DNA from: Pseudoalteromonas tetraodonis
GTDB lineage: Bacteria; Pseudomonadota; Gammaproteobacteria; Enterobacterales; Alteromonadaceae
Reading direction: 5' to 3'
Length of the DNA: 32,000 nt
Assembly (NCBI RefSeq): GCF_002310835.1
Contig: NZ_CP011041.1
Coordinates: forward strand, 2,340,001 to 2,372,000
A program made the translations under genes and the position numbers. How positions within the stretch are numbered: the stretch's first letter is position 1; every line of letters starts with the position of its first letter. Under the pieces are notes generated by a model, which was not told where the DNA came from, did no database searches, and saw nothing but the letters and a program-made list of their open reading frames with translations. Positions 7,002 to 20,677 of the stretch are shown one piece after another.

Positions 7002-7032
7002 GTGCTACAACAACATAACCCATTTGTAGCAC
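7002..7032 (-). terminator. hairpin just downstream of the host miaE stop, possible terminator
   Basis: GTGCTACA (7002-7009) and TGTAGCAC (7025-7032) form an 8-bp stem with a 15-nt loop. On the minus strand it is followed by a moderately T-rich stretch. Confidence 0.35.
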
Positions 7033-7041
7033 TTAAGTATA

Positions 7042-7707
7042 CTAAGCACTTTTACTTAACGGTGTTCCACTGTGAAACTTAAAGTCTTCGTCATCAGATA
7101 AAATTAACTGTGCTTCTATTTCAGCAAATTCTTTTACCCGCTCGGTAATATCAAAATCAGCAATGTCTTGAGCAAGGGTTAAATAATCTTGGTAATGACG
7201 TGCCTCAGAGCGCAGCAATGAAATATAAAAATCCCCTAAGCGTTTATCTACATGGGGTGCAAGCTTGGCAAAGCGTTCACACGAGCGAGCTTCTATGTAA
7301 GCACCTACAATAAGCTTATCAACTAAGGCATTAGGCTCAAACGTTTTAACATTGCGTAGCATGCCTTTGGCATAACGACATGGCGTTATACTTTTATATT
7401 CAACACCGTATTCATCCATAATTTCGAGCACTTGATAGAAATGATGCAGCTCTTCTTTTATCAGCATTACCATTTTATCAATTAAATCTTGGCCATAAGG
7501 CGAGTTAGATTTAGGGATAATGGATTTAGTGAGTTTATTTTTAGCCGCTAAATCACGCCAATTTCCCTCACGTTTATAAATAAGCGTTTCAAACGGTTTA
7601 AGCCATTCAAGCAGTGCATCACTGCTCTCTTTATCTACCGCATACTTACGAATTAAAAACATGGCACTTTGCGCCGCTTTTAATTCATTAAATGTAAATA
7701 TGTGCAT
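7042..7707 (-). pseudogene. miaE: 3' part of the host miaE, cut off from its 5' end by the island; the apparent ATG at 7707 is island-derived
   Basis: The ORF reads MHIFTFNEL|KAAQSAMFLIRKY...EELHHF...EARSCERF...SEARHY (ferritin-like di-iron motifs). From K10 onward it is colinear with residues 48-257 of the intact paralogue at 18020..18793. The first 9 codons have no counterpart there and lie inside the island arm. Confidence 0.8.
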
Positions 7708-7714
7708 ATATAAA
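7701..7714. repeat. left terminal inverted repeat of the island (TGTGCATATATAAA)
   Basis: Exact reverse complement of 20487-20500. Confidence 0.8.
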
Positions 7715-7840
7715 TAGCAATATATTTATCAAGTAGTTAATGAAAAATTATGCTGGGATAGTTTTTATTTGCGAATAGAATTAAATTCATATTCGTACAG
7801 AGTAAGATAGAACGTAAACAATTTTGAAAGCGTGTGGAAT

Positions 7841-9262
7841 CTATCCAGTGTTCGCCTTAGTGAATTGATAAAAATGTTTTTTTAGTAATGATTTTGAAAT
7901 ATTGGTTTTAGATTGACCTAAACTGTTGCCTTTCAAACCCCTATAGTATTTATCTCTGACTTTATCAGAAACGACTATTTTCAAAGTCTGCGGCTCGATT
8001 GATATTAAAAACCTGTCAAATAGTCGATGTATATCGACTCTGAGACATAGTCCATTTTGCAACAGATTGGATTGTTCTCCTTTGTAAGGAATAATATGGG
8101 CAGCTTCTAACAAAGCCAGCTCAGCACATCCTGATACGGCACATTTTGAATAAAAGTTATCAAGAGTTAATGATCTAAATCCCTGCTGGCCAACCCTTGT
8201 AACTTGGCTCCTAGTGACTCTATCCCTGTTATCTTCTGTTAACGCATGTAGGCTCACTTGCTCTTTATCATCTATTTTTGTGTGAACATTTTCTGTTAAC
8301 TTATCAATATCTTCTTCATCAATGTCAAAATCTAAATCAAGAATTTGGGGGTGTTCTAAAAAGGCTTTCCAGTGTTTTTTCTGGCTATCAATTTTTGTAG
8401 ATTTTCTAATAATAGCTAATGCTTCACATGCCGCAGATATTGAAGAAAATGAGTAATTGCGCTCTTCCCATAATTTTAAAATACGCTTTAAAGGAAGCTG
8501 CACAACTTCAGATCTATTATATTTTTTTCTGTGAAACGGATTGATTGTGATTATCTGATCATTTTGAGGATTTTCTGCTAACTCAATATCCTTTAACTTT
8601 CTTTCAAATTCACTGATCAAATCATGATTTAAGTAGCTTTCCCAACCCTTATAGTTCTTAATATTACCATCATTAACATTCTTAATAGCCAATATTTCTG
8701 CCGCAGCTTCTTTTGTACCACATAACTTTAACCTGTGATGCCAAACTAACTCTACCTCCTCTAAAGTAAGCTCAGTTACATCTTCAGGGTCAAACACATA
8801 TAGGTGCAGTGGCAGGTTATGTTTTACTTGGGTAGCAGTAGTCTCTTTATTTGGCGTATCTATTGTTTCGTAAAGATCATTTGAGCTCATTGATAAAGCA
8901 AAATCATCATCGAGATCTAAATCATCATCTAAAGGTATTTCCGTACTCTGCTTTTCTAAAAGGTATCGCTCGACATTAAAAGATGGACCAGGATTAATTT
9001 TTCTTTTAGTTTTATTATTCTTTTTTCCTTTATGCTCGGCATAAGCCTGTTTAGCTTTATTAAAATCAACAATATTTAAAAACTTCTTGAAAGCACTAAA
9101 ATTTTCTTTATTTTCATAAGCTACTTTAAGAGCTTTCTTCTCACTTTTAGTTAACATGAATTCATGTTTCGCTAGTAGGTGAAATAAGTCGTTTATGCTT
9201 TTCCCTTTAGAATAATATTCAAAGATATCTTTTTTTATTCCAATAACAGTACGCTTCATCAT
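7841..9262 (-). CDS. orphan protein: tandem HTH-like modules + acidic linkers + C-terminal McrA/HNH_2-type nuclease domain
   Basis: 473 aa. C-terminus reads RVGQQGFRSLTLDNFYSKCAVSGCAELALLEAAHIIPY...LLQNGLCLRVDIHRLFDRFLISI. This is the pattern I know from ScoMcrA-like HNH_2 nucleases; putative triad H389/N403/H412. Residues ~155-213 and ~247-304 are an internal duplication. The gene is visibly more AT-rich than the adjacent hsd genes. Confidence 0.7.
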   Translation of the reverse strand: MMKRTVIGIKKDIFEYYSKGKSINDLFHLLAKHEFMLTKSEKKALKVAYENKENFSAFKKFLNIVDFNKAKQAYAEHKGKKNNKTKRKINPGPSFNVERYLLEKQSTEIPLDDDLDLDDDFALSMSSNDLYETIDTPNKETTATQVKHNLPLHLYVFDPEDVTELTLEEVELVWHHRLKLCGTKEAAAEILAIKNVNDGNIKNYKGWESYLNHDLISEFERKLKDIELAENPQNDQIITINPFHRKKYNRSEVVQLPLKRILKLWEERNYSFSSISAACEALAIIRKSTKIDSQKKHWKAFLEHPQILDLDFDIDEEDIDKLTENVHTKIDDKEQVSLHALTEDNRDRVTRSQVTRVGQQGFRSLTLDNFYSKCAVSGCAELALLEAAHIIPYKGEQSNLLQNGLCLRVDIHRLFDRFLISIEPQTLKIVVSDKVRDKYYRGLKGNSLGQSKTNISKSLLKKHFYQFTKANTG

Positions 9263-9328
9263 AATTCTCTAAATAGATCTATATTTTGATATTATCTACA
9301 TCTTTAATATAACTCGCGAAATTCCTAT

Positions 9329-11839
9329 TCACCTTGCATACAAATACTTCTGAAAACCTATAAACGTATCGCGTATCGCAGCTGGTGATCCAAACTCAAT
9401 AGCGGCGTCATTAATGGTGTTGTATTTAAGCTCTACTAAGCTACGCATTTTTTTAGGAGCCAGTTCTTGCACGCCGTCTTCAATGTATTTACTTAATATA
9501 AAGTTGATAAACTCTTGTTGTTTATAGTCAGTAAATGCAGAGTTTATTTTAGGCTTAGCTTGTTGAGCTCGTTCTGTGCGTGTTTGCGCTTCTGCGGCAT
9601 AGGCTACGTAGGATAAAACATCGTATACGTCGCTGTCTTGTGCATCAATTACGGCTTTCATACTATCGAGTTTTTCGCTATCGTAGCCCGCTTCGGTTAA
9701 GTCTTCTAATAGCTTTTCGCGAGTTGTTGGGTCACTCCATATTTCGCGTAGTTGGTCTTCGTTTTCAAAAAAGCGCGGTAGGTCGTCAAACATACGTTCA
9801 ACAAATTCTTTTGCTGTAATGGGCTTACCTTCTGCACTCCAGTACATTGCTGAGGAAATATGCTTAATTTGTCGTGTACGGCCGTCTGAGAGCTTTATTT
9901 CGAGCTTTTCACATACACATGGCCTTTCGCCACATTTTTCACAGCTTTCAGGCTCTGGCTTTTCACAAACACACGGCTTTTGTTCACACACCTTACACGG
10001 TTTCTTTTCACCGGCACCATCACCGCCAGTGTCTTCACATTGGCACGGGGTTGTGCCGCACTCTGGGCATACTTCGCTGGGTATTGGCTCACCATCCCAA
10101 GCTGGGTCAGCAAAGTTATGGTGCGCTTTTACAAAGTCGTAAATGGTAAAGTAGTCTTTGCCATCGTAAGTGCGGGTGCCTCGGCCAATGATCTGCTTAA
10201 ACTCAATCATATTATTACAAGGGCGCATGAGCACAATGTTACGTACATTACGTGCATCTACGCCTGTAGAGAGTTTGCGTGATGTGGTTAAAATTGTCGG
10301 AATCGTTTTTTCGTTATCACAAAAGGTTTTTAAATCGTTTTCACCCGCTACGCCATCGTTAGCGGTAACACGAACACAATAGTTAGTGTTGGTAGTCCAG
10401 CCCTTTTTAACTGCATACTGATTAATAAAATCGCGCACCATACCGGCATGAACTTGTGTAGCACAAAACACGATGGTTTTTTCTTTATGATTAAAACGAT
10501 CCATCCAATAGTGTACACGGCGCTCTTCGCGCTGAGGTATAGTAATAATGCGGTTAAAATCACCTTCTTTATACAGTTTACCGGGCTCAGGATCGCCTTT
10601 TACAATAACTCCATCACCCTTTATATAAGTGTACTCATCCATAGTGCCAACAATGGGTAGCACTTTAAATGGCGTTAAAAAGCCATCGTTAATGCCTTCT
10701 TTTAGGGTGTAGCTGTAAACGGGTTCGCCAAAGTAACCATAGGTATCAGCGTTATCGGTACGCTTTGGTGTGGCGGTTAAACCTAGCTGAACTGCTGGTT
10801 CAAAGTGTTTAAGAATATCACGCCAAGCACTTTCATCATTTGCGCCACCACGGTGACACTCATCAATAATAATTAAATCAAAAAAATCAGCTGGGTATTG
10901 CTCGTAATACGGATTTTCTGCCTTTTTGAGTGGCGCATTTTCATCTTCTTCTGTTGTGGCTTCTTTTAATTCGGTTTTAGGCCCACACATAAGGGTATGA
11001 AAAATTGTAAAAAACACACTGGCATTTTTTGGTACGCCGCCTCGTTTACGAATATCGTCAGGGGTGATACGTACAATGGCATCTTCACCAAATGAGCCAA
11101 AATCATTAAATGCCTGATTAGCTAAAATATTACGATCAGCCAAAAATAAAATACGCGGGCGCTTTTTAGCAAGCCTTATATCTTTCTGCGCGGTCAAACT
11201 CCAACGGGTTTGAAATAACTTCCATGCGGTTTGAAAGCCAATACAGGTTTTACCCGTACCGGTAGCCAGTGTAAGCAGTATGCGATTTTTGCCTTGAGCA
11301 ATAGCATCAAGGGCATTGTGAATGGCGTTTTCTTGATAATAACGGGGTGCCCAATCACCTTTAGCTTCAAAAGGGATGGTAGAAAACGCATCACGCCAAG
11401 CGGTTGTGTAATCCGCTTCTGGTTTATCACCTTGTTGTTCAAAGGTTAAATCCCATAGCGCTTGGGGAGACATATATTCATCTACCAGCGTCTCAATACC
11501 TGTGAGCATATCAATCTGGTAAATCTCATGGCCGTTGGTGGCATACGCAATACGGCATTGCAGACGCTTTGCGTAGTCTTTGGCTTGGCGCACACCTTCG
11601 CTGTAAGTCAGGCTTTCTTTTTTGGCTTCTACTGCGGCAAGCTTACGGCCTTTATATACCAACACATAATCGCAAGGCACTTTGTTAGCGCGTTTGCCAC
11701 CCGCCATAATTTGGCCTGGGCAAATAAGCTCGCGGCGAATAAAGCTGTTATCAACTTCACCCCAACCCGCAGCGACTAGTTTAGGGTCGATTAAATCCGC
11801 TCTGGTGTCGGCTTCGTTACGCGTCCTTGCTTGTGACAT
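9329..11839 (-). CDS. hsdR: type I restriction enzyme R subunit (EcoEI/EcoAI-like C-terminus) with a Cys-rich insert
   Basis: 836 aa. N-terminal PD-(D/E)xK-like CDYVL...AAVEAKK. SF2 helicase motifs LATGTGKT, IIIDECHRG, LGLTATP, QIIGRGTR. The C-terminal region resembles the EcoEI R C-terminal domain. Its ATG overlaps the hsdS stop (TAATG). Confidence 0.9.
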   Translation of the reverse strand: MSQARTRNEADTRADLIDPKLVAAGWGEVDNSFIRRELICPGQIMAGGKRANKVPCDYVLVYKGRKLAAVEAKKESLTYSEGVRQAKDYAKRLQCRIAYATNGHEIYQIDMLTGIETLVDEYMSPQALWDLTFEQQGDKPEADYTTAWRDAFSTIPFEAKGDWAPRYYQENAIHNALDAIAQGKNRILLTLATGTGKTCIGFQTAWKLFQTRWSLTAQKDIRLAKKRPRILFLADRNILANQAFNDFGSFGEDAIVRITPDDIRKRGGVPKNASVFFTIFHTLMCGPKTELKEATTEEDENAPLKKAENPYYEQYPADFFDLIIIDECHRGGANDESAWRDILKHFEPAVQLGLTATPKRTDNADTYGYFGEPVYSYTLKEGINDGFLTPFKVLPIVGTMDEYTYIKGDGVIVKGDPEPGKLYKEGDFNRIITIPQREERRVHYWMDRFNHKEKTIVFCATQVHAGMVRDFINQYAVKKGWTTNTNYCVRVTANDGVAGENDLKTFCDNEKTIPTILTTSRKLSTGVDARNVRNIVLMRPCNNMIEFKQIIGRGTRTYDGKDYFTIYDFVKAHHNFADPAWDGEPIPSEVCPECGTTPCQCEDTGGDGAGEKKPCKVCEQKPCVCEKPEPESCEKCGERPCVCEKLEIKLSDGRTRQIKHISSAMYWSAEGKPITAKEFVERMFDDLPRFFENEDQLREIWSDPTTREKLLEDLTEAGYDSEKLDSMKAVIDAQDSDVYDVLSYVAYAAEAQTRTERAQQAKPKINSAFTDYKQQEFINFILSKYIEDGVQELAPKKMRSLVELKYNTINDAAIEFGSPAAIRDTFIGFQKYLYAR

Positions 11840-13059
11840 TAGACCACAGCTCCTTCTTTTTCTTTCGTTAACTCACCTGAAAAGGCTTTTTGTAGAATAG
11901 ATTTTTTGAGTTCGTCTAAACTATCGAGCTTCTTTATGTAAATCCATTCCAGGTGGAAATACTGTTGCTTTAAAGATTTAAGAGCACGCACTATTTCTTC
12001 CTGCTGTTTTTGTGGAGCCAGCGGTGCAAGAAAAGATCTCATTGTTTTCAAAGATACATTCTTTATTGTTGCCCCAGTAGCTTCTCGTAAAGCATATTTT
12101 TGAAATAGAGGGCTCTCAATTACAAATTTTATATACTCTTTATTTACGTTTTCTTCTAAGTTGAAGTAGCAAGCACTTTTCCCAAGAATTACTTTTTCAT
12201 TGTTATAAAATGCTACATTACCAAGAGTTCCATTTATAGAAACAAAGACTGTTCGATCATTAAGAGGCTTTTTGTACTTATTATATTCTTCCCTAGAAAC
12301 TCTCTTGGTTTTTTCTTTAATCGTTATTTTTCCATCATCTAAATTATTACCATTGATAAAGAAATATTCACCCTCAGGATCGTACTTTGGTGTTCCGTGC
12401 AATCCATCTCCAAGTTTTGTCGTTATATCCGAAATTGGTGCTTCAACCCATCCCTCACCACTCTGGCTAAATACTTGCTGCAAGTAGCTTTCAAACAGCT
12501 CGCGGGCGTTTTTGAGGTTTTGCTCGGTCTTAGCGCGGGCTTGTTCTATATCAACAAAGGCTCGATCTAGAATGGCGACGATGCGTTTTTGTTCTTCTTC
12601 GCTAGGTGTCGGGACCATAATCTCTTTAAGAATTTTGACCGAAGCCATATTCTTAATCGCTGCCCCTTGTGATAACGACTCAATTTGCTCCTGAAAATTA
12701 CGGCTTTCCATCCAAAGCTTTAAAAATTGAGGTGACAAGTTTTTATTAGGCGTTAATTTGAGTAATGCTTGATTAATTATGCCTTGCTTAATTCCTGAAG
12801 GTACAATTGCAATCTTTCCCATAGTGCCAGAGCAACTCATAATCAAATCATTAGGGAAAAGTTCAAACCGTCCCATTTCTGAAAATTTATCTTCATCTAC
12901 AAAATATCTAACACTATCAAATTGGTTATAAATGGCATGTTGTTGCTCATAGACAGCATACCCGTCCTCTTTGAATATATTCTTTTTAAGAGCACCACCA
13001 AAAGGCCCCCTAACAAATTCACAGACATCACCAAAACGCTTAGTTTCCCAAGTCATCAC
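11839..13059 (-). CDS. hsdS: type I R-M specificity subunit with two target-recognition domains
   Basis: 406 aa with a bipartite TRD-conserved-TRD-conserved layout. The conserved helices are EEQKRIVAILDRAFVDIEQARAKTEQNLKNARELFESYLQ and QQEEIVRALKSLKQQ...LDELKKSILQKAF. The start is GTG 13059 or, more likely, ATG 13056 (TGATG overlap with the hsdM stop; GGAG 8 nt upstream). Confidence 0.9.
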   Translation of the reverse strand: MMTWETKRFGDVCEFVRGPFGGALKKNIFKEDGYAVYEQQHAIYNQFDSVRYFVDEDKFSEMGRFELFPNDLIMSCSGTMGKIAIVPSGIKQGIINQALLKLTPNKNLSPQFLKLWMESRNFQEQIESLSQGAAIKNMASVKILKEIMVPTPSEEEQKRIVAILDRAFVDIEQARAKTEQNLKNARELFESYLQQVFSQSGEGWVEAPISDITTKLGDGLHGTPKYDPEGEYFFINGNNLDDGKITIKEKTKRVSREEYNKYKKPLNDRTVFVSINGTLGNVAFYNNEKVILGKSACYFNLEENVNKEYIKFVIESPLFQKYALREATGATIKNVSLKTMRSFLAPLAPQKQQEEIVRALKSLKQQYFHLEWIYIKKLDSLDELKKSILQKAFSGELTKEKEGAVV

Positions 13060-14522
13060 AACAACTCCTGAATCTTACCCAGAATCGCTTCGCTCTCTTT
13101 ATCCAACGCGATGATTTCTTCAATGATGGCTTGCGGTTCACGCAGTGGGGCTTCTTCTGCTTGGTTCGGGTTTTTAACTGATAAATCCCATGTTGCATCA
13201 TTAAGCTCAGACGTTGCCAATAGCCAAGACTTAGCGCTGTCCTCAAAGCCTTTTTGTAGCTCTACAAATTCTTTTAAGTCTTTGTCGTTTAGCGGATTGG
13301 TTTTACCCAAGCTGCGGCCAGGGTCTAGCTGATAGAACCAAGTTTTCTGTGTCGGTTCGCCTTTGGTGAAAAACAACACCACGGTTTTAACCCCAGCACC
13401 TAAGAAGGTCTTTGCTGGGCAATCGAGTACGGTGTGTAAGTTGCAGTTTTCTAATAGCTCTTTGCGCAAGGCAATGGCGGCATTATCGGTATTCGATAAA
13501 AAAGTGTTTTTAATCACAATAGCGGCACGGCCACCAGGCTTTAGCATCTTGATAAAGTGTTGCAAAAACAAGAAGGCAGTTTCACCGGTTTTAATCGGGA
13601 AGTTTTGCTGAACTTCTTTGCGCTCTTTACCGCCAAATGGCGGGTTAGCCAATACAATATCGTGCTGGTTGCTTGGGGTAATGTCTTGTAGGTTTTCGCC
13701 CAGCGTATTGGTGTGAATAACGTTAGGTGCTTCGATGCCATGCAAAATCATGTTCATAATGGCGATAACGTACGCTAAAGACTTTTTCTCTTTGGCGTAA
13801 AAGGTGTGTTCTTGCAGGGTTTTTAAATCGCTGGTTGAAAGCTGCTTTTTGCTGGCACCACCTTGGCGAAGATAGTCGTAGGCTTCACACAAGAAGCCTG
13901 CCGACCCTGCTGCACCATCGTATATGGTTTCGCCAATTTGTGGCTGTAATACGTCTATCATGGCGCGGATTAATGGGCGTGGTGTGTAATATTCGCCACC
14001 GTTGCGACCAGCGTTGCCCATATTTTTAATTTTTACCTCGTACAGGTGTGAAAGCTCATGTTTTTCTTCTTGTGAGCGAAAACGTAATTCATCTACTTTC
14101 TCTAGCGCATCACGCAATGAATAACCACTTTGAATTTTGTTTTTGATCTCGCTAAATATCTCACCAATCTTGTATTCAATGGTGTCAGGGCCGTTGGCAC
14201 GTAGCTTAAAACCTTTAAGGTAAGGGAATAACTCACCATCAACAAAATCCATTAAATCGCTACCAGTTCGGGCTTTGTCGTGATCAAACTCACCATTAGC
14301 AGTTTTAGGTGCAGCCCACGAACTCCAGCGGAAGTCTACATCAATAATGTATTCGTAGTTTTCCGCCATCAATTCGGCTTCTTGAGACTTGGTAAACTCT
14401 AAGTCGTCAAGGTATTTTAAAAATAGCATCCACGACGATTGTTCGGTGTAGTCTAATTCACTAGAGCAACCTGAGTCTTTATGAAAAATGTCGTCGATGT
14501 TTTTAAAAGTTTGTTCAAACAT
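13056..14522 (-). CDS. hsdM: type I R-M N6-adenine DNA methyltransferase subunit
   Basis: 488 aa. HsdM N-terminal domain (LFLKYLDD). AdoMet motif I DGAAGSAGFL. Catalytic motif IV LANPPFGG. First gene of the M-S-R operon. Confidence 0.9.
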   Translation of the reverse strand: MFEQTFKNIDDIFHKDSGCSSELDYTEQSSWMLFLKYLDDLEFTKSQEAELMAENYEYIIDVDFRWSSWAAPKTANGEFDHDKARTGSDLMDFVDGELFPYLKGFKLRANGPDTIEYKIGEIFSEIKNKIQSGYSLRDALEKVDELRFRSQEEKHELSHLYEVKIKNMGNAGRNGGEYYTPRPLIRAMIDVLQPQIGETIYDGAAGSAGFLCEAYDYLRQGGASKKQLSTSDLKTLQEHTFYAKEKKSLAYVIAIMNMILHGIEAPNVIHTNTLGENLQDITPSNQHDIVLANPPFGGKERKEVQQNFPIKTGETAFLFLQHFIKMLKPGGRAAIVIKNTFLSNTDNAAIALRKELLENCNLHTVLDCPAKTFLGAGVKTVVLFFTKGEPTQKTWFYQLDPGRSLGKTNPLNDKDLKEFVELQKGFEDSAKSWLLATSELNDATWDLSVKNPNQAEEAPLREPQAIIEEIIALDKESEAILGKIQELL

Positions 14523-14934: not shown

Positions 14935-14972
14935 CTTTAGCGAACTTTATATTTTTAATATGTTCGCTAAAG
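14935..14972. repeat. 11-bp perfect inverted repeat (CTTTAGCGAAC / GTTCGCTAAAG) with a 16-nt AT loop
   Basis: Read directly from the sequence. It lies in the 540-bp non-coding gap between hsdM and the (MD)n gene. Confidence 0.6.
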
Positions 14973-15017
14973 TTGGTTTTATACAGCCCGCATTCAAAGC
15001 GAAGTAATTTGAGTGTA

Positions 15018-15054
15018 TTAATAACTGTAATTCAAAAAGAGTTACAGTTATTAA
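15018..15054. repeat. 13-bp perfect inverted repeat (TTAATAACTGTAA / TTACAGTTATTAA) with an 11-nt loop
   Basis: It starts 9 nt beyond the stop (15063-15065) of the minus-strand gene 15063..15821. No clear T run follows on the minus strand, so it may be a terminator-like hairpin or an operator. Confidence 0.5.
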
Positions 15055-15062
15055 CAACCTTA

Positions 15063-15821
15063 TTACGCCTTGTCTATGTGCTTTGCAACAGTTTGTCTAC
15101 TGAGACCTACAGCTTTAGAAATTGCCTTATAGGTCATGCTAGGAATCTCCTTTTTTAACAGGGCTGCATGCGTCTTAGGCTCACCCTGTTTTATCATTAG
15201 AAGACATGAGCTTTTACGGTTTAATTCCTCTTTGAGCTCTACATTTAACAAATGAAGACTTTCAAGATCTGCATCTTTTTGCGTAACCATAGCCAATAAT
15301 TGTAACCACTTTTTCAGTAGATTGAGAAATGAACGATAATCAGAACATGCCAGTAATCTTTGTTTACTGAATAAGCGGTTTTTTAACAAACCGATTAGAT
15401 GCGGGTTTGAGTCTGCCTCAAGCTTATGAAAAACCCTTGTAACCTGCTCATTTAAGGGGCTAAAGCGAATAACTTTATTACACCAGCTCTCATCCTGTTG
15501 AAACTCGTTTGCACAAGCCCGTAAAATCTTAGTTGCTGGCGCGGGTTCATTAAGGGCTAAGCTGATAAGGTAATAAAGCTGCTCATCACTTAGACTCTGA
15601 CGAGTTAAGCCTTCTTTATCCGCCTTTTCTTTTTGTAAAATGCGAATATTGGCTAAAACAGCTGCCCTTTGTTTTTTAAGGTTGTTCAGCTCAGTAAATT
15701 GTTTTTTTAGCTGCATATCATGGCTTATAATGGGTTCTTCCATATCCATATCCATATCCATATCCATATCCATATCCATATCCATATCCATATCCATATC
15801 CATATCCATATCCATATCCAT
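15063..15821 (-). CDS. hypothetical DNA-binding protein with an (Met-Asp)13 N-terminal repeat and a C-terminal HTH
   Basis: 252 aa. The C-terminus MTYKAISKAVGLSRQTVAKHIDKA looks like a resolvase/Hin-type HTH. The central part is helical and Leu-rich. The true start is ambiguous because every repeat unit supplies an in-frame ATG. Confidence 0.6.
   Translation of the reverse strand: MDMDMDMDMDMDMDMDMDMDMDMDMDMEEPIISHDMQLKKQFTELNNLKKQRAAVLANIRILQKEKADKEGLTRQSLSDEQLYYLISLALNEPAPATKILRACANEFQQDESWCNKVIRFSPLNEQVTRVFHKLEADSNPHLIGLLKNRLFSKQRLLACSDYRSFLNLLKKWLQLLAMVTQKDADLESLHLLNVELKEELNRKSSCLLMIKQGEPKTHAALLKKEIPSMTYKAISKAVGLSRQTVAKHIDKA
15741..15821 (-). repeat. hexanucleotide microsatellite (ATGGAT)13 + ATG at the 5' end of the gene
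   Basis: The plus strand shows CATATC x13 from 15741 to 15818, then CAT (15819-15821). An A7 run follows on the coding strand just upstream (15823-15829). Confidence 0.95.
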
Positions 15822-16051
15822 ATTTTTTTCCCATATTCCGTTATGACAAGTTAATATCTTAACATAAATGGCACGACTCGTTATTTTTACCCTTAAATTA
15901 ATTATTATTTATTAAGAAAATTATTTATTAACGCCTACAATCAACCATGAACAAATTAGATAAAAAATTAGCAATATTTATTTTTACCGATTGGCGTCGA
16001 GTTGCCCCAAATACGTTACGATAGTAATAATCAAAACAAGGAATAGAGTTT

Positions 16052-16516
16052 ATGAGTAACGTATATATTGAAATTGAATTCATCTCAATTGTTGAAAACC
16101 TAGATAATGTATTTTCAGTTAAAATTGATGACACCATTAGTCTTAATGTAACCCTAGAAAAGGAGAACTGCACGTTAAGCGTAGACTTAACAGTTATGGA
16201 ATCTAAGGAGTTTATCTTCGACGAAAATACAGGGGCTATAACAGGCGATGCAAGTTTGAAAGTCTTGCCTGTGTCCTTAGAAAAGGCAAAAGCTATCTTC
16301 TGGGAAGAAGAGTCCATATGGGGTTCTATTCGCCCCCGATCTTCGAAAGATATAATAGCTTTCGAGGCAAATGCTCATAAAAAGAAAATTAAATTTTCTA
16401 AAAGAGTCAGCCCATCAACTAAAGAAAACACACTAACAGATGAAAGCGAAACTGCTATAAAAGACGAGCATGAGGGGCTATTAGACTCAATGGGTGTTTG
16501 CCCAGAAAAATGTTAA
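16052..16516 (+). CDS. hypothetical acidic protein
   Basis: 154 aa. AGGAA lies ~10 nt upstream of the ATG. It is divergent from the (MD)n gene and sits directly upstream of the oriT-like region and the relaxase. I recognise no motif. Confidence 0.5.
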   Translation: MSNVYIEIEFISIVENLDNVFSVKIDDTISLNVTLEKENCTLSVDLTVMESKEFIFDENTGAITGDASLKVLPVSLEKAKAIFWEEESIWGSIRPRSSKDIIAFEANAHKKKIKFSKRVSPSTKENTLTDESETAIKDEHEGLLDSMGVCPEKC

Positions 16517-16531
16517 CCCACCGCGGAGCGA

Positions 16532-16627
16532 CATTTTGGCTGAGTTGCGTAGCGTTACTCTTGCCAAAATGTGGAGTGGGTGCACAATTTACAATTGTGT
16601 TCAAAGTTGTCTATAGACAACTTTGAA
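16532..16627 (+). promoter_or_regulatory. candidate oriT: three consecutive hairpins/palindromes upstream of the relaxase gene
   Basis: First, CATTTTGGC (16532-16540) pairs with GCCAAAATG (16563-16571), with flanking CCCAC/GTGGG. Second, CACAATT-TAC-AATTGTG spans 16583-16599. Third, a 28-bp perfect palindrome TTCAAAGTTGTCTATAGACAACTTTGAA spans 16600-16627. Confidence 0.5.
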
Positions 16628-16666
16628 GATGCATCCACATTTAAAAAAATGGCTAAGGATTAGGCA

Positions 16667-17464
16667 ATGATTGATACAAGCAACAATAAAGCTATCTTCA
16701 GGATAAAAAAAATTAATTTGCAAAGACAGTTACGTGCTGCCCTTGCTCATAATTTGCGACTGGTAAACCCTCCAAACGTAAACACTGAGCTATCTCATTA
16801 TAATATCCAAGCAAAAGGGTTAAACACTATTGAAGCCTGTATGAGTCGGTTTGAGAGTGCTTTAGAGGGTATAAAAGTGCGTAAGAATGCTGTACTAGCT
16901 CATGAAGCTATTATCACAGGCTCTCCAGATCATATGAATAAATTGACAAAAAAACAGCAAATAGCATATTTCACTGATGCTGCACACTGGCTAGTTAAAT
17001 TACATGGAGGAGATTACAAAAATATCCTTTGTTTATCAATACATTACGATGAATTAGGCGCACACGGTCACTATTTAATGGTACCCAAAATAGAATCAAA
17101 GTTAAATAGCCGAGCTATTATTGGTGGAGCTCGAGGCAGACTTAGCGAATTACAAACGGAGTTTTACGAAAAAGTGGCAAAAAAATACGGATTTACACGA
17201 GGTGTAAAAAATAGTAAAGCTACACACCAGCACTACAGTGAATTTAAAAACCTTAAAAACGACTTAAGTGAGGTAAAGAATAAATTGGAACAAACCAAAA
17301 TTGAGTACAAGACAGCCCTTAATAGACTCAGCTCTGCTCAGCAAAGCCTGTTATTTATAAAAAAGGAACTGAAACTAGCTAAAACTCTGGGGGTATCTGA
17401 CTTAAGAAGAAAAATCGCTCTTCTGGAAAAGAATACTATGTTTAAGGTAACCCCACGCATTTAG
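16667..17464 (+). CDS. MobV-family (Mob/Pre) relaxase
   Basis: 265 aa. It aligns by eye to pMV158 MobM motifs: AHNLR (HxxR), RKNAVLAHEAIITGS, and IHYDELGAHGHYLMVP (HxDE...HxH metal site). It continues with LNSRAII and KATHQHYSEFK, followed by a C-terminal coiled coil. Confidence 0.8.
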   Translation: MIDTSNNKAIFRIKKINLQRQLRAALAHNLRLVNPPNVNTELSHYNIQAKGLNTIEACMSRFESALEGIKVRKNAVLAHEAIITGSPDHMNKLTKKQQIAYFTDAAHWLVKLHGGDYKNILCLSIHYDELGAHGHYLMVPKIESKLNSRAIIGGARGRLSELQTEFYEKVAKKYGFTRGVKNSKATHQHYSEFKNLKNDLSEVKNKLEQTKIEYKTALNRLSSAQQSLLFIKKELKLAKTLGVSDLRRKIALLEKNTMFKVTPRI

Positions 17465-17633
17465 AGTTATTGCCTTAGCGATTAAATTAAATTTCATGAA
17501 GTAACTAAACAAATAAAAATTATTTAACCTCTCAGGTTCCGAGTTAAAAAAATCGGCTATAATCAGAGATTCAAACAATGGTGTTGTTTTAATAACACTT
17601 TTTTATCCGCTAAATGCTAAGGAAAGCAATTTA

Positions 17634-17873
17634 ATGAAGTTACATGTTACCCGCCAAGTCAAAGCTGTATTGGAAGAAGACAAGGGCTTAGATGAGCATT
17701 ATGTCACTGATAAGTTAAGCTACTTTGAAAAAGCTAAAACCAACCGCGAAGCACTTATGATTTCTAGCTTTTTAGATCGAGAGGGTCGAAAAATGCTTGC
17801 TAACCGCCTGAAAATGAACGAACGTGACTTAACGGGATTTTATCAAATAGTCGAACAATCTTATTGGTGGTAG
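17634..17873 (+). CDS. small hypothetical protein (79 aa)
   Basis: Good SD (AAGGAAAG, 7-8 nt upstream of the ATG). A TATAAT at 17558-17563 lies upstream. A strong terminator follows. No recognisable motif. Confidence 0.5.
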   Translation: MKLHVTRQVKAVLEEDKGLDEHYVTDKLSYFEKAKTNREALMISSFLDREGRKMLANRLKMNERDLTGFYQIVEQSYWW

Positions 17874-17913
17874 AGTAATCGGAGACTTACTACTATAGAT
17901 TAATTATTTTATT

Positions 17914-17944
17914 AAACATGGGCTTATAAACCCATGTTTTTTTT
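17914..17944 (+). terminator. rho-independent terminator
   Basis: AAACATGGG (17914-17922) pairs with CCCATGTTT (17931-17939) across an 8-nt loop, followed by T8. Confidence 0.8.
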
Positions 17945-18019
17945 ATTAATAAGATACAACTCTTAATGAAAGCTTTCTTAAACTTAGATGGTGAAACGCT
18001 AACTTCGCAAGTTAAACCA

Positions 18020-18793
18020 TTATGAAAGTGTAGGCACCCCACTATGAAACTTGAAGTCTTTATCTGGTGATAAAATTAGCTCAGCTTCTATGCCACCAAA
18101 AAATTTGATTCGCTCGGTAATATCAAAATCAGCAATGTCTTGAGCAAGGAGCAAGTAATCTTGATAATGACGCGCTTCTGAACGCAATAACGATATGTAA
18201 AAGTCACCTAAGCGTTTATCTACATGCGGTGCCAGTTTTGCAAAACGCTCACATGAGCGTGCCTCAATATAAGCACCAATAATGAGTTTATCGACTAAAG
18301 CATCTGGCTCATACGATTTGACATGGCGTAACATGCCTTTAGCATAACGACATGGAGTGATGCTTCTATATTCAACACCATATTCATCCATAATTTCGAG
18401 TACTTGATAAAAGTGATGTAGCTCTTCTTTTATTAGCATCACCATTTTATTAATTAAGTCTTGGCCATAGAGAGTATCTGATTTTGGGATCATCGACTTA
18501 GACAATTTATTCTTATCGCTAAGGTCGCGCCAGTCCCCTTCTCTTTTGTATATCAGAGATTCAAAAGGTTTTAACCACTCGAGTAACGCATCACCACTAT
18601 CTTTATCAACGGCATACTTACGAATTAAAAACATTGCTGATTGAGCTGCTTTTAATTCACACACGAGGTGATCTAAAAGTACTATGTCGAGATTCTCATG
18701 TTTTTTTGCTTTTTCAACCCATTTCTTAGGTGTATTACACTGCAAGAAACTATTTATTGGTTCTAAGAGTTTATTAATTTCATTTGAGTTCAT
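18020..18793 (-). CDS. miaE: tRNA-(ms2io6A37)-hydroxylase, island-borne intact copy
   Basis: 257 aa with ferritin-like di-iron motifs: CELKAAQSA, KEELHHF, EARSCERF, RSEARHY. Its ATG lies 2 nt after the recombinase stop (TAG-TA-ATG). Confidence 0.8.
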   Translation of the reverse strand: MNSNEINKLLEPINSFLQCNTPKKWVEKAKKHENLDIVLLDHLVCELKAAQSAMFLIRKYAVDKDSGDALLEWLKPFESLIYKREGDWRDLSDKNKLSKSMIPKSDTLYGQDLINKMVMLIKEELHHFYQVLEIMDEYGVEYRSITPCRYAKGMLRHVKSYEPDALVDKLIIGAYIEARSCERFAKLAPHVDKRLGDFYISLLRSEARHYQDYLLLAQDIADFDITERIKFFGGIEAELILSPDKDFKFHSGVPTLS

Positions 18794-18795
18794 TA

Positions 18796-20469
18796 CTAAT
18801 CATCTTTTAATAATATATCTAAATAGCCACTTTCTGAATGTATCTTAAGGTAATACATGAGGCGAGCTGCATTTTCAACAGTAGATCCCCTGCTTTTGTG
18901 GGGGTACATTAACCTATCGATATCCCAATCAGATGTGCGCACCTCAGTGACATATTCACTTTCTCTATAATACTCTTTTGAACCATAAAAAACACATTGG
19001 TAGGCTTTACGTTTTCGATCATATTGGCTAAATTTGAACCTAGCTACAACGTCATCCTCTTCTAAGCTAAAAGATAATTCCTTGTTTTTTAAAATTATCT
19101 TATTGCCTATCCGATTTAATTCGAGATTATAATTTAAAGGGTCGGTTTGTGATAAATCGACTATTTTTTTAGATATTGAAGCTACATTAAGTTTTGTTTC
19201 AATTTCGGCTTGTATTTCAGCTAGCTGACTAACAATATCATTTATTTCATCATCTAATTCTTCCATCAAACCAAATATTGTTCCTGATTTTTTTTCACTA
19301 TTTTTATAATAATCTTTCAGGTCAGCCAATTTTGTTTGAAGCCCTTTTAATTCATAAGTTAGTTTCGCTTTTTTCTCATGACTGGTAGAGCTTCGTTTTG
19401 CACCACTAATTTTAGCAAGTATCAAGGGCTCAACATAAGCAAAAAAGAAATGATAAGCTACAACATAAGGAAATGTTGTCGGTGCATCACAACTTTCTCC
19501 CCCCGATCTCTGTTTTCTACTACAGCGAAGCAACGGTAATGACTCTGCTGATTGTTGAATACTCATACCTGAACCACAATGCCCACACTTAACCAAGCCA
19601 TGTAAGGGCCACTTCCTGTCAGGTCTAACGCTCGTAAACAGTCGTTCTTTACATATCCGCTGAGAATTATAAAAATCTTTATCACTTACAACCGATTCGT
19701 AAAGCTTCTCATTGTAAACTAAACCTATGCACTTAGGGTTTTGAATTATTCTGATAATTTTTGTCGGATTGATATTTTTCAGTGGCTTTATTTTACCGTA
19801 TTTTTTTCTCAGTGCTCTTTCAATCAAAACTTGACCAAGTCCTTCAGCATGCAATTTAAAAATATCTCGCACTACATCCGCGTATTCATTTAACTTGCCT
19901 TTTTGGTCTAGCCAAAAAGGCATCCGCATCTTAGGGGGGATTTTATTTTCTTTGGCGTTATACTCTCGTCGACTCCAAGAGCTTTTTACTTTTTCTGAAC
20001 GCCATTTAGAATCTGAATGAGCCTTATCAATCTCAACAATTAAACGCATACGTGTTGCTAAGTCATTACGCTTACTTGGGGAGTAAACACTTTGGTCTCT
20101 TGCTGTGACAATAGAAACGTCATGATCCCAAATTTTATCAAGCAACTTCTCCGTTTCAGTAATCGTCATTCGAGACAATCTAGAAAAATGCTCAACAAGA
20201 ATAATCGAGCCTTTAGGAACTACCTTTGACTCTATTGCAGCAACAAGCCTCCCCAAAGATCCCGAACTTAAATGCTTGCCCGAAAATGCTGATACACCAG
20301 CATCAATGAGAGGCTTACCTTCAAGCTCAACCACAACGCAGTTCGGGTGACTACGTAACCACTCTCTTTGTGCCTCCCCTTGTCTATACAAAGAGCTGTT
20401 CCCTTCTTGTGCTTGAGAACTAAAGCGCTGGTATAAATATACGTTACCAGATAATTTATCGTCTGACAT
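18796..20469 (-). CDS. large serine recombinase (integrase)
   Basis: 557 aa. Catalytic N-domain: YLYQRFSSQAQ (R-x-S-S-x-x-Q), DAGVSAFSG, LVEHFSRLSR. Recombinase domain, then zinc ribbon CGHCGS...LRCSRKQRSGGESC, then a long coiled coil (LKGLQTKLADLKDYY...LAEIQAEIETKL). Confidence 0.85.
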   Translation of the reverse strand: MSDDKLSGNVYLYQRFSSQAQEGNSSLYRQGEAQREWLRSHPNCVVVELEGKPLIDAGVSAFSGKHLSSGSLGRLVAAIESKVVPKGSIILVEHFSRLSRMTITETEKLLDKIWDHDVSIVTARDQSVYSPSKRNDLATRMRLIVEIDKAHSDSKWRSEKVKSSWSRREYNAKENKIPPKMRMPFWLDQKGKLNEYADVVRDIFKLHAEGLGQVLIERALRKKYGKIKPLKNINPTKIIRIIQNPKCIGLVYNEKLYESVVSDKDFYNSQRICKERLFTSVRPDRKWPLHGLVKCGHCGSGMSIQQSAESLPLLRCSRKQRSGGESCDAPTTFPYVVAYHFFFAYVEPLILAKISGAKRSSTSHEKKAKLTYELKGLQTKLADLKDYYKNSEKKSGTIFGLMEELDDEINDIVSQLAEIQAEIETKLNVASISKKIVDLSQTDPLNYNLELNRIGNKIILKNKELSFSLEEDDVVARFKFSQYDRKRKAYQCVFYGSKEYYRESEYVTEVRTSDWDIDRLMYPHKSRGSTVENAARLMYYLKIHSESGYLDILLKDD

Positions 20470-20474
20470 AGCAA

Positions 20475-20642
20475 TTACTCACTGAATTTATATATGCACA
20501 CATTATCATTGAGCTCACATATTAAGTGATCAATTAATATGATGGGTAAGTTTTCTTTTTTGATTGCTTGTTCAACCCACTCATCGGGAGTACTGCATAA
20601 TAAAAAATTGTTAATTGGCTCTAAAAGCTGGCTATGTGGCAC
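20475..20642 (-). pseudogene. miaE: 5' stub of the host miaE (44 host codons + 11 island-encoded codons + TAA)
   Basis: Too short for the ORF track. Reverse translation from GTG 20642 reads (V)PHSQLLEPINNFLLCSTPDEWVEQAIKKENLPIILIDHLICEL|NDNVCIYKFSE*. The host part is colinear with residues 4-47 of the island MiaE (...KLLEPINSFLQCNTPKKWVEKAKKHENLDIVLLDHLVCEL). Confidence 0.75.
20487..20500. repeat. right terminal inverted repeat of the island (TTTATATATGCACA)
   Basis: Exact reverse complement of 7701-7714. It lies 18 nt upstream of the recombinase ATG. Confidence 0.8.
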
Positions 20643-20677
20643 GCTGACTACTCATTGCTAAAAATTGCGATTATGGC

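What the first reader, a model, noticed from the sequence alone, without database searches (positions are those of the whole stretch)
7679..20510. 12.8-kb integrative mobilizable defence island precisely splitting miaE, with junctions readable to a 2-bp crossover
Two fragments of one gene flank the block. Reverse strand 20642->20511 encodes 44 codons ending ...DHLICEL. Reverse strand 7680->7042 encodes 212 codons starting KAAQSAMF.... Both are colinear with the intact 257-aa MiaE-type ORF at 18020..18793 (...DHLVCEL|KAAQSAMF...). Since 44+212=256, nothing is missing and the insertion is precise. In coding orientation the right junction is TGTGAGCTC-AA-TGATAATGTGTGCATATATAAA. The left junction is TTTATATATGCACATATTTACATTTAATGAATTA-AA-AGCGGCGCAA. 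This fits the 2-bp staggered exchange of serine integrases. The deduced attB is ...ATATGTGAGCTCAAAGCGGCGCAA... (C-E-L-K-A-A). The deduced attP is TTTATATATGCACA-N30-TGTGCATATATAAA. Its 30-bp spacer is itself quasi-palindromic and contains CATTTAAT-GA-ATTAAATG. Cargo comprises a large serine recombinase, a MobV relaxase with an oriT-like region, a type I R-M system and an HNH nuclease. A protein-coding tRNA-modification gene, rather than a tRNA gene, is the target.
Basis: partly seen in the sequence, partly recalled or inferred. Interest (0 to 1): 0.7.

Follow-up and report, generated by a model that had tools for sequence, protein, structure and literature searches.

The report
Mobile island that replaces miaE

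Summary
The split gene is real. Window 20642->20515 and 7686->7042 (minus strand) rejoin into a 256-codon MiaE that is 96% identical to the intact gene of Pseudoalteromonas sp. RW-H-Ap-1. In that genome the two window flanks are contiguous. The cargo is as described: large serine recombinase (LSR), MobV relaxase with an oriT-like region, hsdMSR and an HNH nuclease.

The junction reading is wrong. GCTC is island DNA and ATTA is host DNA, so:
- attB = ...ATATGT-GA-ATTAAAAGCGGCG
- attP = ...CATTTAAT-GA-GCTCAATGATAATG

The 25-nt terminal inverted repeats sit symmetrically 4 nt either side of GA.

It sits 3 nt downstream of the LSR and is part of a conserved module found in Pseudoalteromonas, Shewanella, Rheinheimera, Colwellia and Thalassotalea. 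It is under strong purifying selection (dN/dS 0.04-0.10). In one genome it has itself received a second island.

Near-identical islands (98-99%) lie in hosts whose flanks are only 75-77% identical, so transfer is recent. Excision, recombination and complementation are untested. This is a new variant of a known kind; the closest precedent is the Vibrio cholerae recA island that carries a divergent recA.

The parts
20515..20642 (-). Host miaE 5' fragment: GTG start through the GA of Glu43. 20516-20515 is the shared crossover dinucleotide at attL.
   Evidence: Translation. Upstream DNA is 87% nt identical to empty-site L001. The junction is mapped.
20475..20514 (-). Island right end, i.e. the attP right half-site (GCTCAATGATAATGTGTGCATATATAAAT...), including inverted-repeat arm 20486-20510. 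It extends the truncated miaE' ORF by ...L-NDNVCIYKFSE, with the stop at 20477-20475, 5 nt before the LSR ATG.
   Evidence: Inverted repeat I3. TGTGA|GCTTAATGATAAT is constant in 6 different hosts. attP symmetry. Sequence.
18796..20469 (-). Large serine recombinase (integrase), 557 aa, with the motif R15-F-S17-S-Q-A-Q21.
   Evidence: Pfam Resolvase, Recombinase and Zn_ribbon_recom, all above cut-off. AF2 model pLDDT 85. Foldseek top hits are full-length serine integrases 9dxf, 9iu2, 9rah and 4kis.
18020..18793 (-). Island-borne full-length miaE (257 aa), 3 nt downstream of the LSR stop. It is the replacement copy and carries its own attB-like site, TGT-GA-ATTAAAAGC.
   Evidence: NCBIfam MiaE equivalog, 437 bits against a cut-off of 320. 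dN/dS is 0.035-0.10 among island copies. Island copies fall outside the clade of chromosomal genes in an NJ tree. The copy in L085 has been hit by a second island.
17903..17950 (.). Hairpin between the convergent miaE and orf79 genes; likely bidirectional terminator of the LSR-miaE operon.
   Evidence: Inverted repeat I17 and a terminator-like site at 17914-17939. Consensus scan only.
17634..17873 (+). orf79, a conserved backbone gene of unknown function downstream of mob.
   Evidence: 62% aa identity to the equivalent gene in the L088 island and 97% in L048. No Pfam hit.
16667..17464 (+). MobV-family relaxase (265 aa).
   Evidence: Pfam Mob_Pre 1.7e-28. NCBIfam MobV equivalog, 106.7 bits against a cut-off of 100. 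Homologues occur in 1056 plasmid records, 881 of them typed as mobilizable.
16517..16640 (+). oriT-like non-coding block upstream of mob, with nested inverted repeats (ACATTTTGGC/GCCAAAATGT, CACAATT/AATTGTG, TTGTCTATAGACAA).
   Evidence: Almost invariant between the window and L088, although their Mob proteins are only 62% identical. The function is inferred.
16052..16516 (+). orf154, a backbone gene upstream of mob.
   Evidence: Full-length 43.5% match to the called 148-aa gene in L088. Gene callers call it in L102 and L104.
15063..15821 (-). orf252, a C-terminal HTH protein with an N-terminal (Met-Asp)13 run. It is a backbone gene, possibly a regulator or replication protein.
   Evidence: Weak Pfam HTH hits below gathering cut-offs. 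52% identity to the L088 gene. (TCCATA)n repeat D2. No plasmid homologue.
9329..14522 (-). Type I restriction-modification cargo: hsdM 13056-14522, hsdS 11839-13059, hsdR 9329-11839.
   Evidence: Pfam. PADLOC MTase_I 1.7e-158, Specificity_I 3.6e-49, REase_I 1.8e-126.
7841..9262 (-). HNH nuclease cargo (473 aa; HNH_2 domain at residues 374-423).
   Evidence: Pfam HNH_2 2.7e-14. PADLOC HNH 4.4e-18.
7687..7721 (-). Island left end, i.e. the attP left half-site (...TTTATATATGCACATATTTACATTTAAT), including inverted-repeat arm 7691-7715.
   Evidence: Inverted repeat I3. attP reconstruction gives 23/35 symmetric positions about GA.
7042..7686 (-). Host miaE 3' fragment. 7686-7685 is the shared GA at attR, followed by A-TTA-AAA-GCG... 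through the stop codon.
   Evidence: Translation. Alignment to L001 runs through position 7687. Junction mapping.

Best explanation
This is a 12.83-kb integrative mobilizable element (IME) of marine Gammaproteobacteria, integrated by its own large serine recombinase into the chromosomal miaE of a Pseudoalteromonas.

Integration (inferred from the sequence anatomy):
- The free form carries an attP of about 60 bp. It is an imperfect palindrome, ATTTATATATGCACAyAT..CATT-N4-GA-N4-AATG..ATrTGTGCATATATAAAT, centred 45 nt upstream of the LSR start codon.
- attB is the DNA encoding DHLICELKAAQ.
- Strand exchange occurs at the central GA, which forms the first two bases of the codon for the MiaE diiron ligand Glu (Glu38 in P. 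putida MiaE).

Consequences of integration:
- The host gene is split after 42 codons plus 2 nt.
- The LSR gene and, 3 nt behind it, a complete island-borne miaE land directly downstream of the host miaE promoter. The stop codon of the truncated host ORF lies 5 nt before the LSR ATG.
- The island thus supplies the MiaE function it destroys, so the insertion should be close to neutral for the host. The operon wiring and the complementation are inferred, not shown.

Spread and cargo:
- The MobV relaxase and the adjacent conserved oriT-like block would allow the excised circle to be mobilized by a helper conjugative system.
- The slot between the backbone and attR carries exchangeable defence cargo. 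Here it holds hsdMSR plus an HNH nuclease.
- The island's own miaE contains an attB-like site and can capture further islands, which builds tandem arrays.
For: Split gene and empty site.

LSR identity: three Pfam domains, the RxSxxxQ motif, and an AF2 model whose best PDB matches are serine integrases at E 2e-12.

Crossover at GA:
- attL reads TGTGA|GCTTAATGATAAT in six hosts with different flanks.
- The L081 flank is 99.75% identical to empty site L032, which reads TGTGA|ATTAAAGG.
- In L088, attL and attR share only GAGC.
- The attP arms are symmetric about GA in three lineages.

Conserved LSR-miaE module at the same site:
- Pseudoalteromonas: L041, L048, L081-83, L085, L087, L088, L102-107.
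- Shewanella (L089), Rheinheimera (L098), Colwellia (L100) and, in a different gene order, Thalassotalea (L099).
-.

Replacement copy is functional: NCBIfam equivalog, all diiron ligand positions retained, dN/dS 0.035-0.10, and a position outside the chromosomal clade.

Recent horizontal transfer: island DNA is 97.6-99.1% identical between hosts whose flanks are 75-77% identical.

Tandem capture: the two LSR-miaE' modules in L085 are 98.7% identical and have the same junction.

Mobilization module. No T4SS gene was detected among the island ORFs.
Against: - No circular form or free attP was found. The attP pattern scan of metagenome and viral contigs gave only chance AT-rich hits, and no plasmid record matches the island.
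- No recombination directionality factor is identified, so excision competence is unknown.
- Transcription of the LSR-miaE pair from the host promoter is inferred from geometry only. Promoter scans are no better than shuffled sequence.
- The window's island reads GCTC where its 98-99% relatives read GCTT, so there is one unexplained base difference next to the crossover.
- MiaE complementation is untested.
Confidence: 0.85

Rival explanations
1. The crossover is the AA of the Lys codon, GAGCTC is host DNA, attB is ...GAGCTCAAAGCG and attP contains ...AATGAATTAAATGAT....
For: In the window alone, attL and attR also share AA at that position. GAGCTN Glu-Leu codons do occur in some chromosomal miaE genes: GAGCTT 14, GAGCTA 9 and GAGCTC 1 of 78.
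Against: - GCTT follows GA at attL in hosts whose nearest empty relatives read ATTA or GTTA.
- In L088 the corresponding dinucleotides differ between attL (AC) and attR (AA), which rules out exchange there.
- AA lies 6 bp off the symmetry centre of the attP arms in all three reconstructed attP sites.
Confidence: 0.03
2. The island-borne miaE is not there to compensate the host. It serves mainly as a portable landing pad (a renewable attB) for further elements, or it is a hitch-hiking remnant of the element's origin.
For: - In L085 a second island is inserted in the first island's miaE at the same GA.
- In L100 the LSR-miaE pair stands alone, without cargo or a C-terminal host fragment.
Against: - A landing pad needs only about 50 bp, yet the whole 257-aa ORF is kept. 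dN/dS is 0.035-0.10 across lineages whose LSRs are 52-99% identical, and the diiron ligands are intact.
- The gene is retained in L099 although its orientation and linkage to the LSR differ.
- The two roles are not mutually exclusive.
Confidence: 0.1
3. The block is an immobile fossil: a once-integrated plasmid that can no longer excise or transfer.
For: No attP circle was found in the public data scanned. No RDF is recognised. L100 looks like a degenerate remnant.
Against: - All backbone ORFs are intact.
- Both host miaE fragments are still open and rejoin into a perfect ORF.
- 98-99% identical islands sit in at least three other Pseudoalteromonas lineages with only 75-77% flank identity.
- A closely related host (L041, flank 92% identical) carries a different island (83% identical), which implies repeated independent integrations.
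Confidence: 0.05

Closest known systems
RME, the recA mobile element of Vibrio cholerae S24 (Rapa et al. 2015, PMC4405046)
   Same: It is a genomic island integrated site-specifically inside a conserved housekeeping gene. It carries a complete, divergent, functional copy of that same gene at one end and mobility genes at the other, and excision restores the host gene.
   Different: - RME uses a tyrosine ('phage') integrase with 9-bp inverted repeats; this island uses a large serine recombinase with a 2-bp crossover.
- The target is recA rather than miaE.
- In RME the replacement gene is not coupled to the integrase gene or placed behind the host promoter.
- RME has no relaxase/oriT module.
- RME was described from a few strains, whereas the LSR-miaE module here spans at least five genera.
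Serine-recombinase IMEs of Firmicutes (Tn4451 and the rumA-, maff2- and SNF2-targeting streptococcal IMEs; review PMC5704250)
   Same: They are small elements with one serine recombinase plus a relaxase/oriT and no conjugation pore. They integrate inside a specific protein-coding gene and are flanked by very short repeats.
   Different: - Those IMEs simply disrupt a dispensable target gene and carry no replacement copy.
- Their hosts are Firmicutes, not marine Gammaproteobacteria.
- Their cargo is mostly antibiotic resistance, whereas here it is restriction and other defence systems.
Phage and ICE large serine integrases (Bxb1, PhiC31, LI/A118, SPbeta SprA)
   Same: The domain architecture and predicted fold match: catalytic domain, recombinase domain and zinc ribbon with a long coiled coil. 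attP is an imperfect palindrome centred on a non-palindromic dinucleotide, and attB lies inside a gene.
   Different: - Sequence identity to solved integrases is only 12-19%, and no PDB hit is found by sequence alone.
- The model has an extra C-terminal beta-rich region at residues 458-511.
- Those elements either leave the target broken or restore it by regulated excision (skin, SPbeta). This one brings a spare gene.
tRNA/tmRNA- and icd-type integrating islands that regenerate the target from island sequence (Islander concept, PMC4383910)
   Same: The element neutralises the damage of inserting into a conserved gene. Islands can also stack in tandem at the regenerated target.
   Different: Those elements duplicate only the displaced gene end within a long attP/attB identity block, through a tyrosine integrase. 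Here identity is limited to about 2-3 bp, and a whole separate paralogue is carried.

Membership tests
Large serine recombinase (serine integrase) | N-terminal resolvase-type catalytic domain with a nucleophilic Ser in an R-x-S-x-x-x-Q motif | tested here: met
   PF00239, 42 bits against a cut-off of 23.3. R15-F-S17-S-Q-A-Q21 is present, and Y13, R15, S17 and Q21 are invariant across 30 homologues.
Large serine recombinase (serine integrase) | Recombinase domain plus zinc-ribbon domain with an embedded coiled coil | tested here: met
   PF07508 27.6 bits and PF13408 41.4 bits. Cys295, Cys298, Cys316 and Cys327 are invariant. The model has long helices at 335-423. Foldseek matches full-length integrases 9dxf, 9iu2 and 9rah at E 2e-12 to 4e-9.
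Large serine recombinase (serine integrase) | Short, non-identical attP and attB that share only a central non-palindromic dinucleotide at the centre of an imperfect inverted repeat | tested here: met
   attL, attR and empty-site comparisons restrict the shared core to GA. The attP arms are symmetric about GA in the window, L087 and L088.
Large serine recombinase (serine integrase) | Catalyses attP x attB integration, and excision requires an RDF | not testable with these tools
orf79, orf154 and orf252 have no informative family hits.
Integrative mobilizable element (IME) | Own integration module plus relaxase/oriT, but no type IV secretion or coupling genes | tested here: met
   The LSR and a MobV equivalog are present, with a conserved oriT-like block. 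None of the island ORFs hits a T4SS or T4CP family.
Integrative mobilizable element (IME) | Evidence of intercellular mobility | tested here: met
   Island DNA is 97.6-99.1% identical in hosts with 75-77% identical flanks. This is indirect evidence; the transfer route is not shown.
Integrative mobilizable element (IME) | Excision to a circle and mobilization by a helper element | not testable with these tools
   The attP pattern scan returned only chance matches.
Target-replacing islands (RME-like) | The island interrupts gene X and carries a complete divergent X that is not derived from the current host | tested here: met
   The island MiaE is 81% identical to the host MiaE. Island copies lie outside all 78 chromosomal sequences in the NJ tree. 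The copy passes the NCBIfam MiaE equivalog cut-off.
Target-replacing islands (RME-like) | The carried copy functionally substitutes for the broken host gene | tested here: inconclusive
   Purifying selection (dN/dS 0.035-0.10) and intact diiron ligands argue that the protein is active. Expression and complementation were not tested.
Type I restriction-modification system | Co-oriented hsdM, hsdS (two target-recognition domains) and hsdR | tested here: met
   Pfam N6_Mtase/HsdM_N, Methylase_S in two stretches, and HSDR_N/ResIII/EcoEI_R_C. PADLOC type I models score 1e-49 to 1e-158.
Gene-intervening elements with regulated excision (skin, SPbeta, gin) | Host function is restored only by developmentally timed excision, with no spare copy on the element | tested here: not met
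   The element carries an intact miaE next to the integrase, so host function does not depend on excision.

The most novel reading that the evidence does not exclude
The integrase plus spare-target-gene cassette is a general strategy, not a one-off.
- By bringing a functional paralogue wired behind the host promoter, a serine-integrase element can use the most invariant DNA of a conserved gene as attB. Here that is the codon of a catalytic iron ligand.
- This would give it a host range spanning several genera at no fitness cost.
- Each integrated copy would also supply a fresh attB, so defence islands could stack into arrays at one locus.
Probability: 0.45. Interest if true: 0.65.

Novelty: new variant of a known kind. 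Interest (0 to 1): 0.55.

Why it matters
- It gives a well-defined natural attB/attP pair, plus a set of orthologous LSRs (41-99% identical) with readable sites. These could be tested directly as new integrases.
- It shows how a 2-bp-crossover integrase, which cannot regenerate its target the way tyrosine integrases do, can still avoid harming the host: it carries the whole gene and captures the host promoter.
- It identifies miaE as a defence-island hotspot in marine Alteromonadales and relatives. Cargo seen there includes type I and type III-like restriction-modification, an AAA_15/DUF4435 pair and GASH/DO-GTPase genes.
- For genome annotation, a second miaE next to a 'recombinase family protein', together with small 'MiaE' fragments, is a signature of this element rather than a duplication or an assembly error.

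Tried and rejected
- An alternative junction using the 5-nt direct repeat AATGA. It would add three codons (N-E-L) to the host gene. Rejected: all 78 intact genes lack the insertion.
- A search for the free attP (CATTTAATGAGCTYAATGATA) in metagenome and viral contigs. The six hits are all unrelated AT-rich sequence with no LSR or miaE nearby.
- Megablast of the whole island against plasmids gave no match. orf252 has no match against plasmids.
- phmmer of the LSR against PDB sequences gave nothing at E <= 0.001. The link to solved integrases needed a predicted structure and Foldseek.
- I tested whether the Colwellia L100 miaE is a host/island chimera left by homologous deletion of the cargo. 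The result is inconclusive because no close Colwellia chukchiensis relative is in the set.
- Literature: no paper in the library combines miaE with serine recombinase, and the miaE plus genomic island hits are irrelevant. The TIGER 'regulated gene integrity' paper could not be opened by DOI.
- Rfam and tRNA scans of the island found nothing. GC content does not set the island apart from its flanks.
- Promoter scans around both island ends are no better than shuffled sequence.

Full report
**1. The observation**

On the minus strand, 20642->20511 encodes VPHSQ...DHLICEL, and the frame then runs on into NDNVCIYKFS. 7707->7042 encodes MHIFTFNELKAAQSAMF.... ORF 18020-18793 is an intact 257-aa MiaE.

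Joining rc(20511-20642) to rc(7042-7680) gives an open 771-nt frame. Its product is 81% identical to the island copy at the amino-acid level and 77% at the nucleotide level.

A scan of one genome per species returned 80 miaE loci, almost all Pseudoalteromonas, Colwellia and Thalassotalea. The best is Pseudoalteromonas sp. RW-H-Ap-1 (L001), 96% identical to the rejoined protein. All 78 uninterrupted chromosomal genes read DHLxCELKAAQ with no indel.

Window 1-7687 aligns to L001 17804-10126, and window 20514-23646 aligns to L001 10129-6996. The flanks are therefore adjacent in a sister genome: a true empty site.

Pfam, PADLOC and NCBIfam confirm the cargo list:
- a large serine recombinase (Resolvase, Recombinase and Zn_ribbon_recom domains);
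- a MobV relaxase;
- HsdM, HsdS and HsdR;
- an HNH nuclease.

So the block, the split gene and the cargo are all real.

**2. Where the cut really is**

In coding orientation the two junctions read:
- attL: ..ATATGT GA GCTC AA TGATAATGTGTGCATATATAAAT
- attR: ..ACATTTAAT GA ATTA AA AGCGGCGC

GAGCTC and GAATTA both encode Glu-Leu. Four independent lines of evidence point to GA.

(i) Six related islands in different hosts all read TGTGA|GCTTAATGATAAT at attL, although the host DNA to the left varies.

(ii) The 400 nt upstream of the L081 junction are 99.75% identical to the empty site L032. L032 continues TGTGA|ATTAAAGG, whereas L081 continues TGTGA|GCTTAATG. Similarly, L082 and L048 read GAGCTT where their nearest empty relatives read GAATTA (L004) and GAGTTA (L007).

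(iii) L088 is an 8-kb island in Pseudoalteromonas sp. KAN5 with both junctions in the locus.
- Its attL is TTTGT GA GCAAACAG and its attR is GTGC GA GCTTAAGG.
- The 97.7%-identical empty site L023 reads TTTGTGAGCTTAAGG.
- The two junctions share only GAGC.
- TG is excluded by L088 and AG by the window, which leaves GA.

(iv) attP reconstructed with GA at the centre is an imperfect palindrome in three lineages (window, L087, L088). The conserved motif AATG-N-A-N-TATGTGCA lies at the same distance on each side. The 25-nt terminal inverted repeat (7691-7715 / 20486-20510, 22 of 25 complementary) sits 4 nt from GA on both sides and is 6 bp off-centre for AA.

The corrected sites follow:
- attB = ...CACTTAATATGT-GA-ATTAAAAGCGGCGCAAAG...
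- attP = ...TATATGCACATATTTACATTTAAT-GA-GCTCAATGATAATGTGTGCATATA...
- The shared GA lies at 20516-20515 and 7686-7685, and the island spans about 7687-20514.

Among the 78 empty sites, GAATTA is the commonest Glu-Leu coding (29). A third reading that uses the AATGA direct repeat would add three codons and is excluded.

**3.

The intact miaE at 18020-18793 begins 3 nt after the LSR stop codon. The same arrangement recurs wherever this LSR clade was examined: host miaE' N-terminal fragment, then LSR, then a full-length miaE, with a gap of -11 to +4 nt.

| Host | Loci | LSR identity to window |
|---|---|---|
| Pseudoalteromonas | L048 | 98% |
| Pseudoalteromonas | L081-83 | 99% |
| Pseudoalteromonas | L041 | 85% |
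| Pseudoalteromonas | L085 | 83% |
| Pseudoalteromonas | L087 | 67% |
| Pseudoalteromonas | L088 | 58% |
| Pseudoalteromonas | L102-107 | exact |
| Shewanella sp. ZOR0012 | L089 | 56% |
| Rheinheimera baltica | L098 | 52% |
| Colwellia chukchiensis | L100 | 41% |

In Thalassotalea castellviae (L099, 45%) the gene order differs. The LSR is divergent from the host C-terminal fragment and convergent with the island miaE. The junction is nevertheless the same...CATTTTGT-GA-GTTAAAGGCTGCGCAA, and a full miaE is still carried. Vibrio relatives at about 40% identity have no miaE nearby and evidently use another target.

Several results argue that the island copy encodes an active enzyme:
- Island copies fall outside the clade formed by all 78 chromosomal genes in a neighbour-joining tree.
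- They pass the NCBIfam MiaE equivalog cut-off, 437 bits against 320.
- They evolve under strong purifying selection. dN/dS is 0.035-0.10 for every pair where dS is not saturated.
- They retain the diiron ligand positions.

The crossover codon is the Glu aligned with P. putida MiaE Glu38, an Fe2 ligand. The next-but-one residue is Lys40, which is implicated in tRNA binding (alignment; PMC7515727). The attB is thus centred on the least mutable DNA in the gene, which plausibly explains the multi-genus host range.

**4. How it most likely works**

Shown by sequence:
- The architecture, the junctions, the conservation across genera, and recent transfer.

Inferred:
- LSR dimers bind attP and attB, cleave at GA and exchange strands.
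- After integration the truncated host ORF ends at 20477-20475, 5 nt before the LSR ATG at 20469. The LSR and island miaE thus sit as an operon behind the host miaE promoter.
- That operon ends at the hairpin at 17903-17950.
- The spare gene supplies MiaE, so the insertion is close to neutral.

Spread:
- Island DNA is 97.6-99.1% identical in hosts whose adjacent chromosome is 75-77% identical.
- L041 has a host flank 92% identical to the window but an island only 83% identical.
- Integration has therefore happened repeatedly and recently.

Mobilization module:
- The MobV relaxase has homologues in 1056 plasmid records, 881 of them typed as mobilizable.
- A non-coding block of about 120 nt upstream of mob is almost invariant between the window and L088, although their Mob proteins are only 62% identical. 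It contains nested inverted repeats and is a credible oriT.
- No T4SS genes are present, so this is an IME that needs a helper.

Backbone and cargo:
- The backbone shared with L088 is LSR-miaE-orf79-mob-orf154-orf252.
- Cargo sits between orf252 and attR. It is hsdMSR plus HNH here, and AAA_15 plus DUF4435 in L088. Other members carry GASH/DO-GTPase genes (L089) or SNF2, DUF4391, a methyltransferase and ResIII (L098).

Tandem capture:
- In L085 a second LSR-miaE module, 98.7% identical to the first, is inserted in the first island's miaE at the same GA.
- The spare gene therefore also acts as a renewable attB, and islands can stack.

**5. Is the integrase a true LSR?**

- All three hallmark Pfam domains score above their cut-offs.
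- The R-x-S-x-x-x-Q motif and four zinc-ribbon cysteines are invariant in 30 homologues.
- Sequence search of the PDB finds nothing.
- An AlphaFold model (pLDDT 85.4) matches full-length serine integrases best: 9dxf/9dxd, Bxb1 9iu2, PhiC31 9rah and LI 4kis, at E 2e-12 to 2e-8.
- Activity and the requirement for an RDF cannot be tested here.

**6. Comparison with what is known**

- Serine-recombinase IMEs that insert inside genes are known, mostly in Firmicutes. They simply disrupt dispensable targets (PMC5704250).
- Tyrosine-integrase islands regenerate tRNA or icd-type targets from a duplicated gene end (PMC4383910, abstract).
- The closest precedent is RME of Vibrio cholerae. It is integrated in recA, carries a divergent functional recA, and has a tyrosine integrase (PMC4405046).
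- I found no paper linking miaE with a serine recombinase or an island.

The present element combines an LSR with a whole-gene replacement that is physically coupled to the integrase gene and captured by the host promoter. It forms a family across at least five genera. I rate it a new variant of a known kind, not categorically new.

**7. Limits**

- No free attP or circle was found.
- Promoter predictions are uninformative.
- The window's GCTC against GCTT in its 98-99% relatives is a single unexplained base next to the crossover.
- The L100 arrangement (LSR-miaE alone, with host genes directly after it) may be a remnant left by homologous deletion between the two miaE copies, but this could not be resolved.

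**Verdict**

- Observation: partly confirmed.
- Interpretation: partly supported.
- Crossover, attB and attP: corrected.
- Main added value: the conserved integrase plus spare-miaE module.

Noticed in passing
window 15739-15821: A (TCCATA)n hexamer array (about 13 units) encodes an N-terminal (Met-Asp)13 run in orf252, the HTH backbone protein. Public draft assemblies of the same island break shortly before this point: the L102 contig ends after orf154.
   Followed up: partly
window 11839-13059 compared with L048 15746-16918: hsdS is only 28% identical between the window and the otherwise 95-97% identical L048 island, whereas hsdM is 95% and hsdR 97% identical. This looks like a swap of the specificity subunit inside a conserved type I R-M cassette.
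   Followed up: no
L085 9800-14307 (Pseudoalteromonas sp. MEBiC 03485): A tandem arrangement: host miaE' - LSR - island miaE' fragment (64 aa) - second LSR - full miaE. The two modules differ at 26 of 1951 nt and have identical junctions. The far ends lie outside the fetched locus.
   Followed up: partly
L100 9819-12437 (Colwellia chukchiensis): miaE' (54 aa) - LSR (41% identical) - full miaE, followed directly by host lpxH-ppiB-cysS, with no cargo and no C-terminal host fragment. This may be a remnant after homologous deletion between the two miaE copies. The chimera test was inconclusive.
   Followed up: partly
L099 9272-12422 (Thalassotalea castellviae): A relative with a different architecture. 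The host miaE C-terminal fragment abuts the island end at the same GA. The LSR is transcribed away from that fragment, and the island miaE is convergent with the LSR. Cargo includes AAA_25 and a type I R-M system.
   Followed up: partly
L090, L091 and L101 (Vibrio parahaemolyticus): Sister-clade LSRs (40-43% identical) sit next to an uncharacterised ORF of about 254 aa, with no miaE nearby. Cargo is either HEPN, umuDC-like and type III R-M genes, or a Zot/secretin filamentous-phage-like block with Mob_Pre. Their target site was not mapped.
   Followed up: no
window 15928-16317 (-) and 16052-16516 (+): Two overlapping antisense ORFs. Only the plus-strand 154-aa ORF has a full-length homologue in the diverged L088 island and is called in public annotations. 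The 129-aa minus-strand ORF is probably spurious.
   Followed up: yes
window 27810-31940 (-), repeats about 29070-30490: A 1376-aa ORF upstream of truA contains a long internal array of degenerate tandem repeats, seen as dozens of staggered self-similar alignments to L001. It was not annotated here.
   Followed up: no
L092-L097: The 21-nt attP test pattern hit six unrelated AT-rich metagenome or viral contigs by chance. Short AT-rich att patterns are not specific enough for exact-match scans of these collections.
   Followed up: yes
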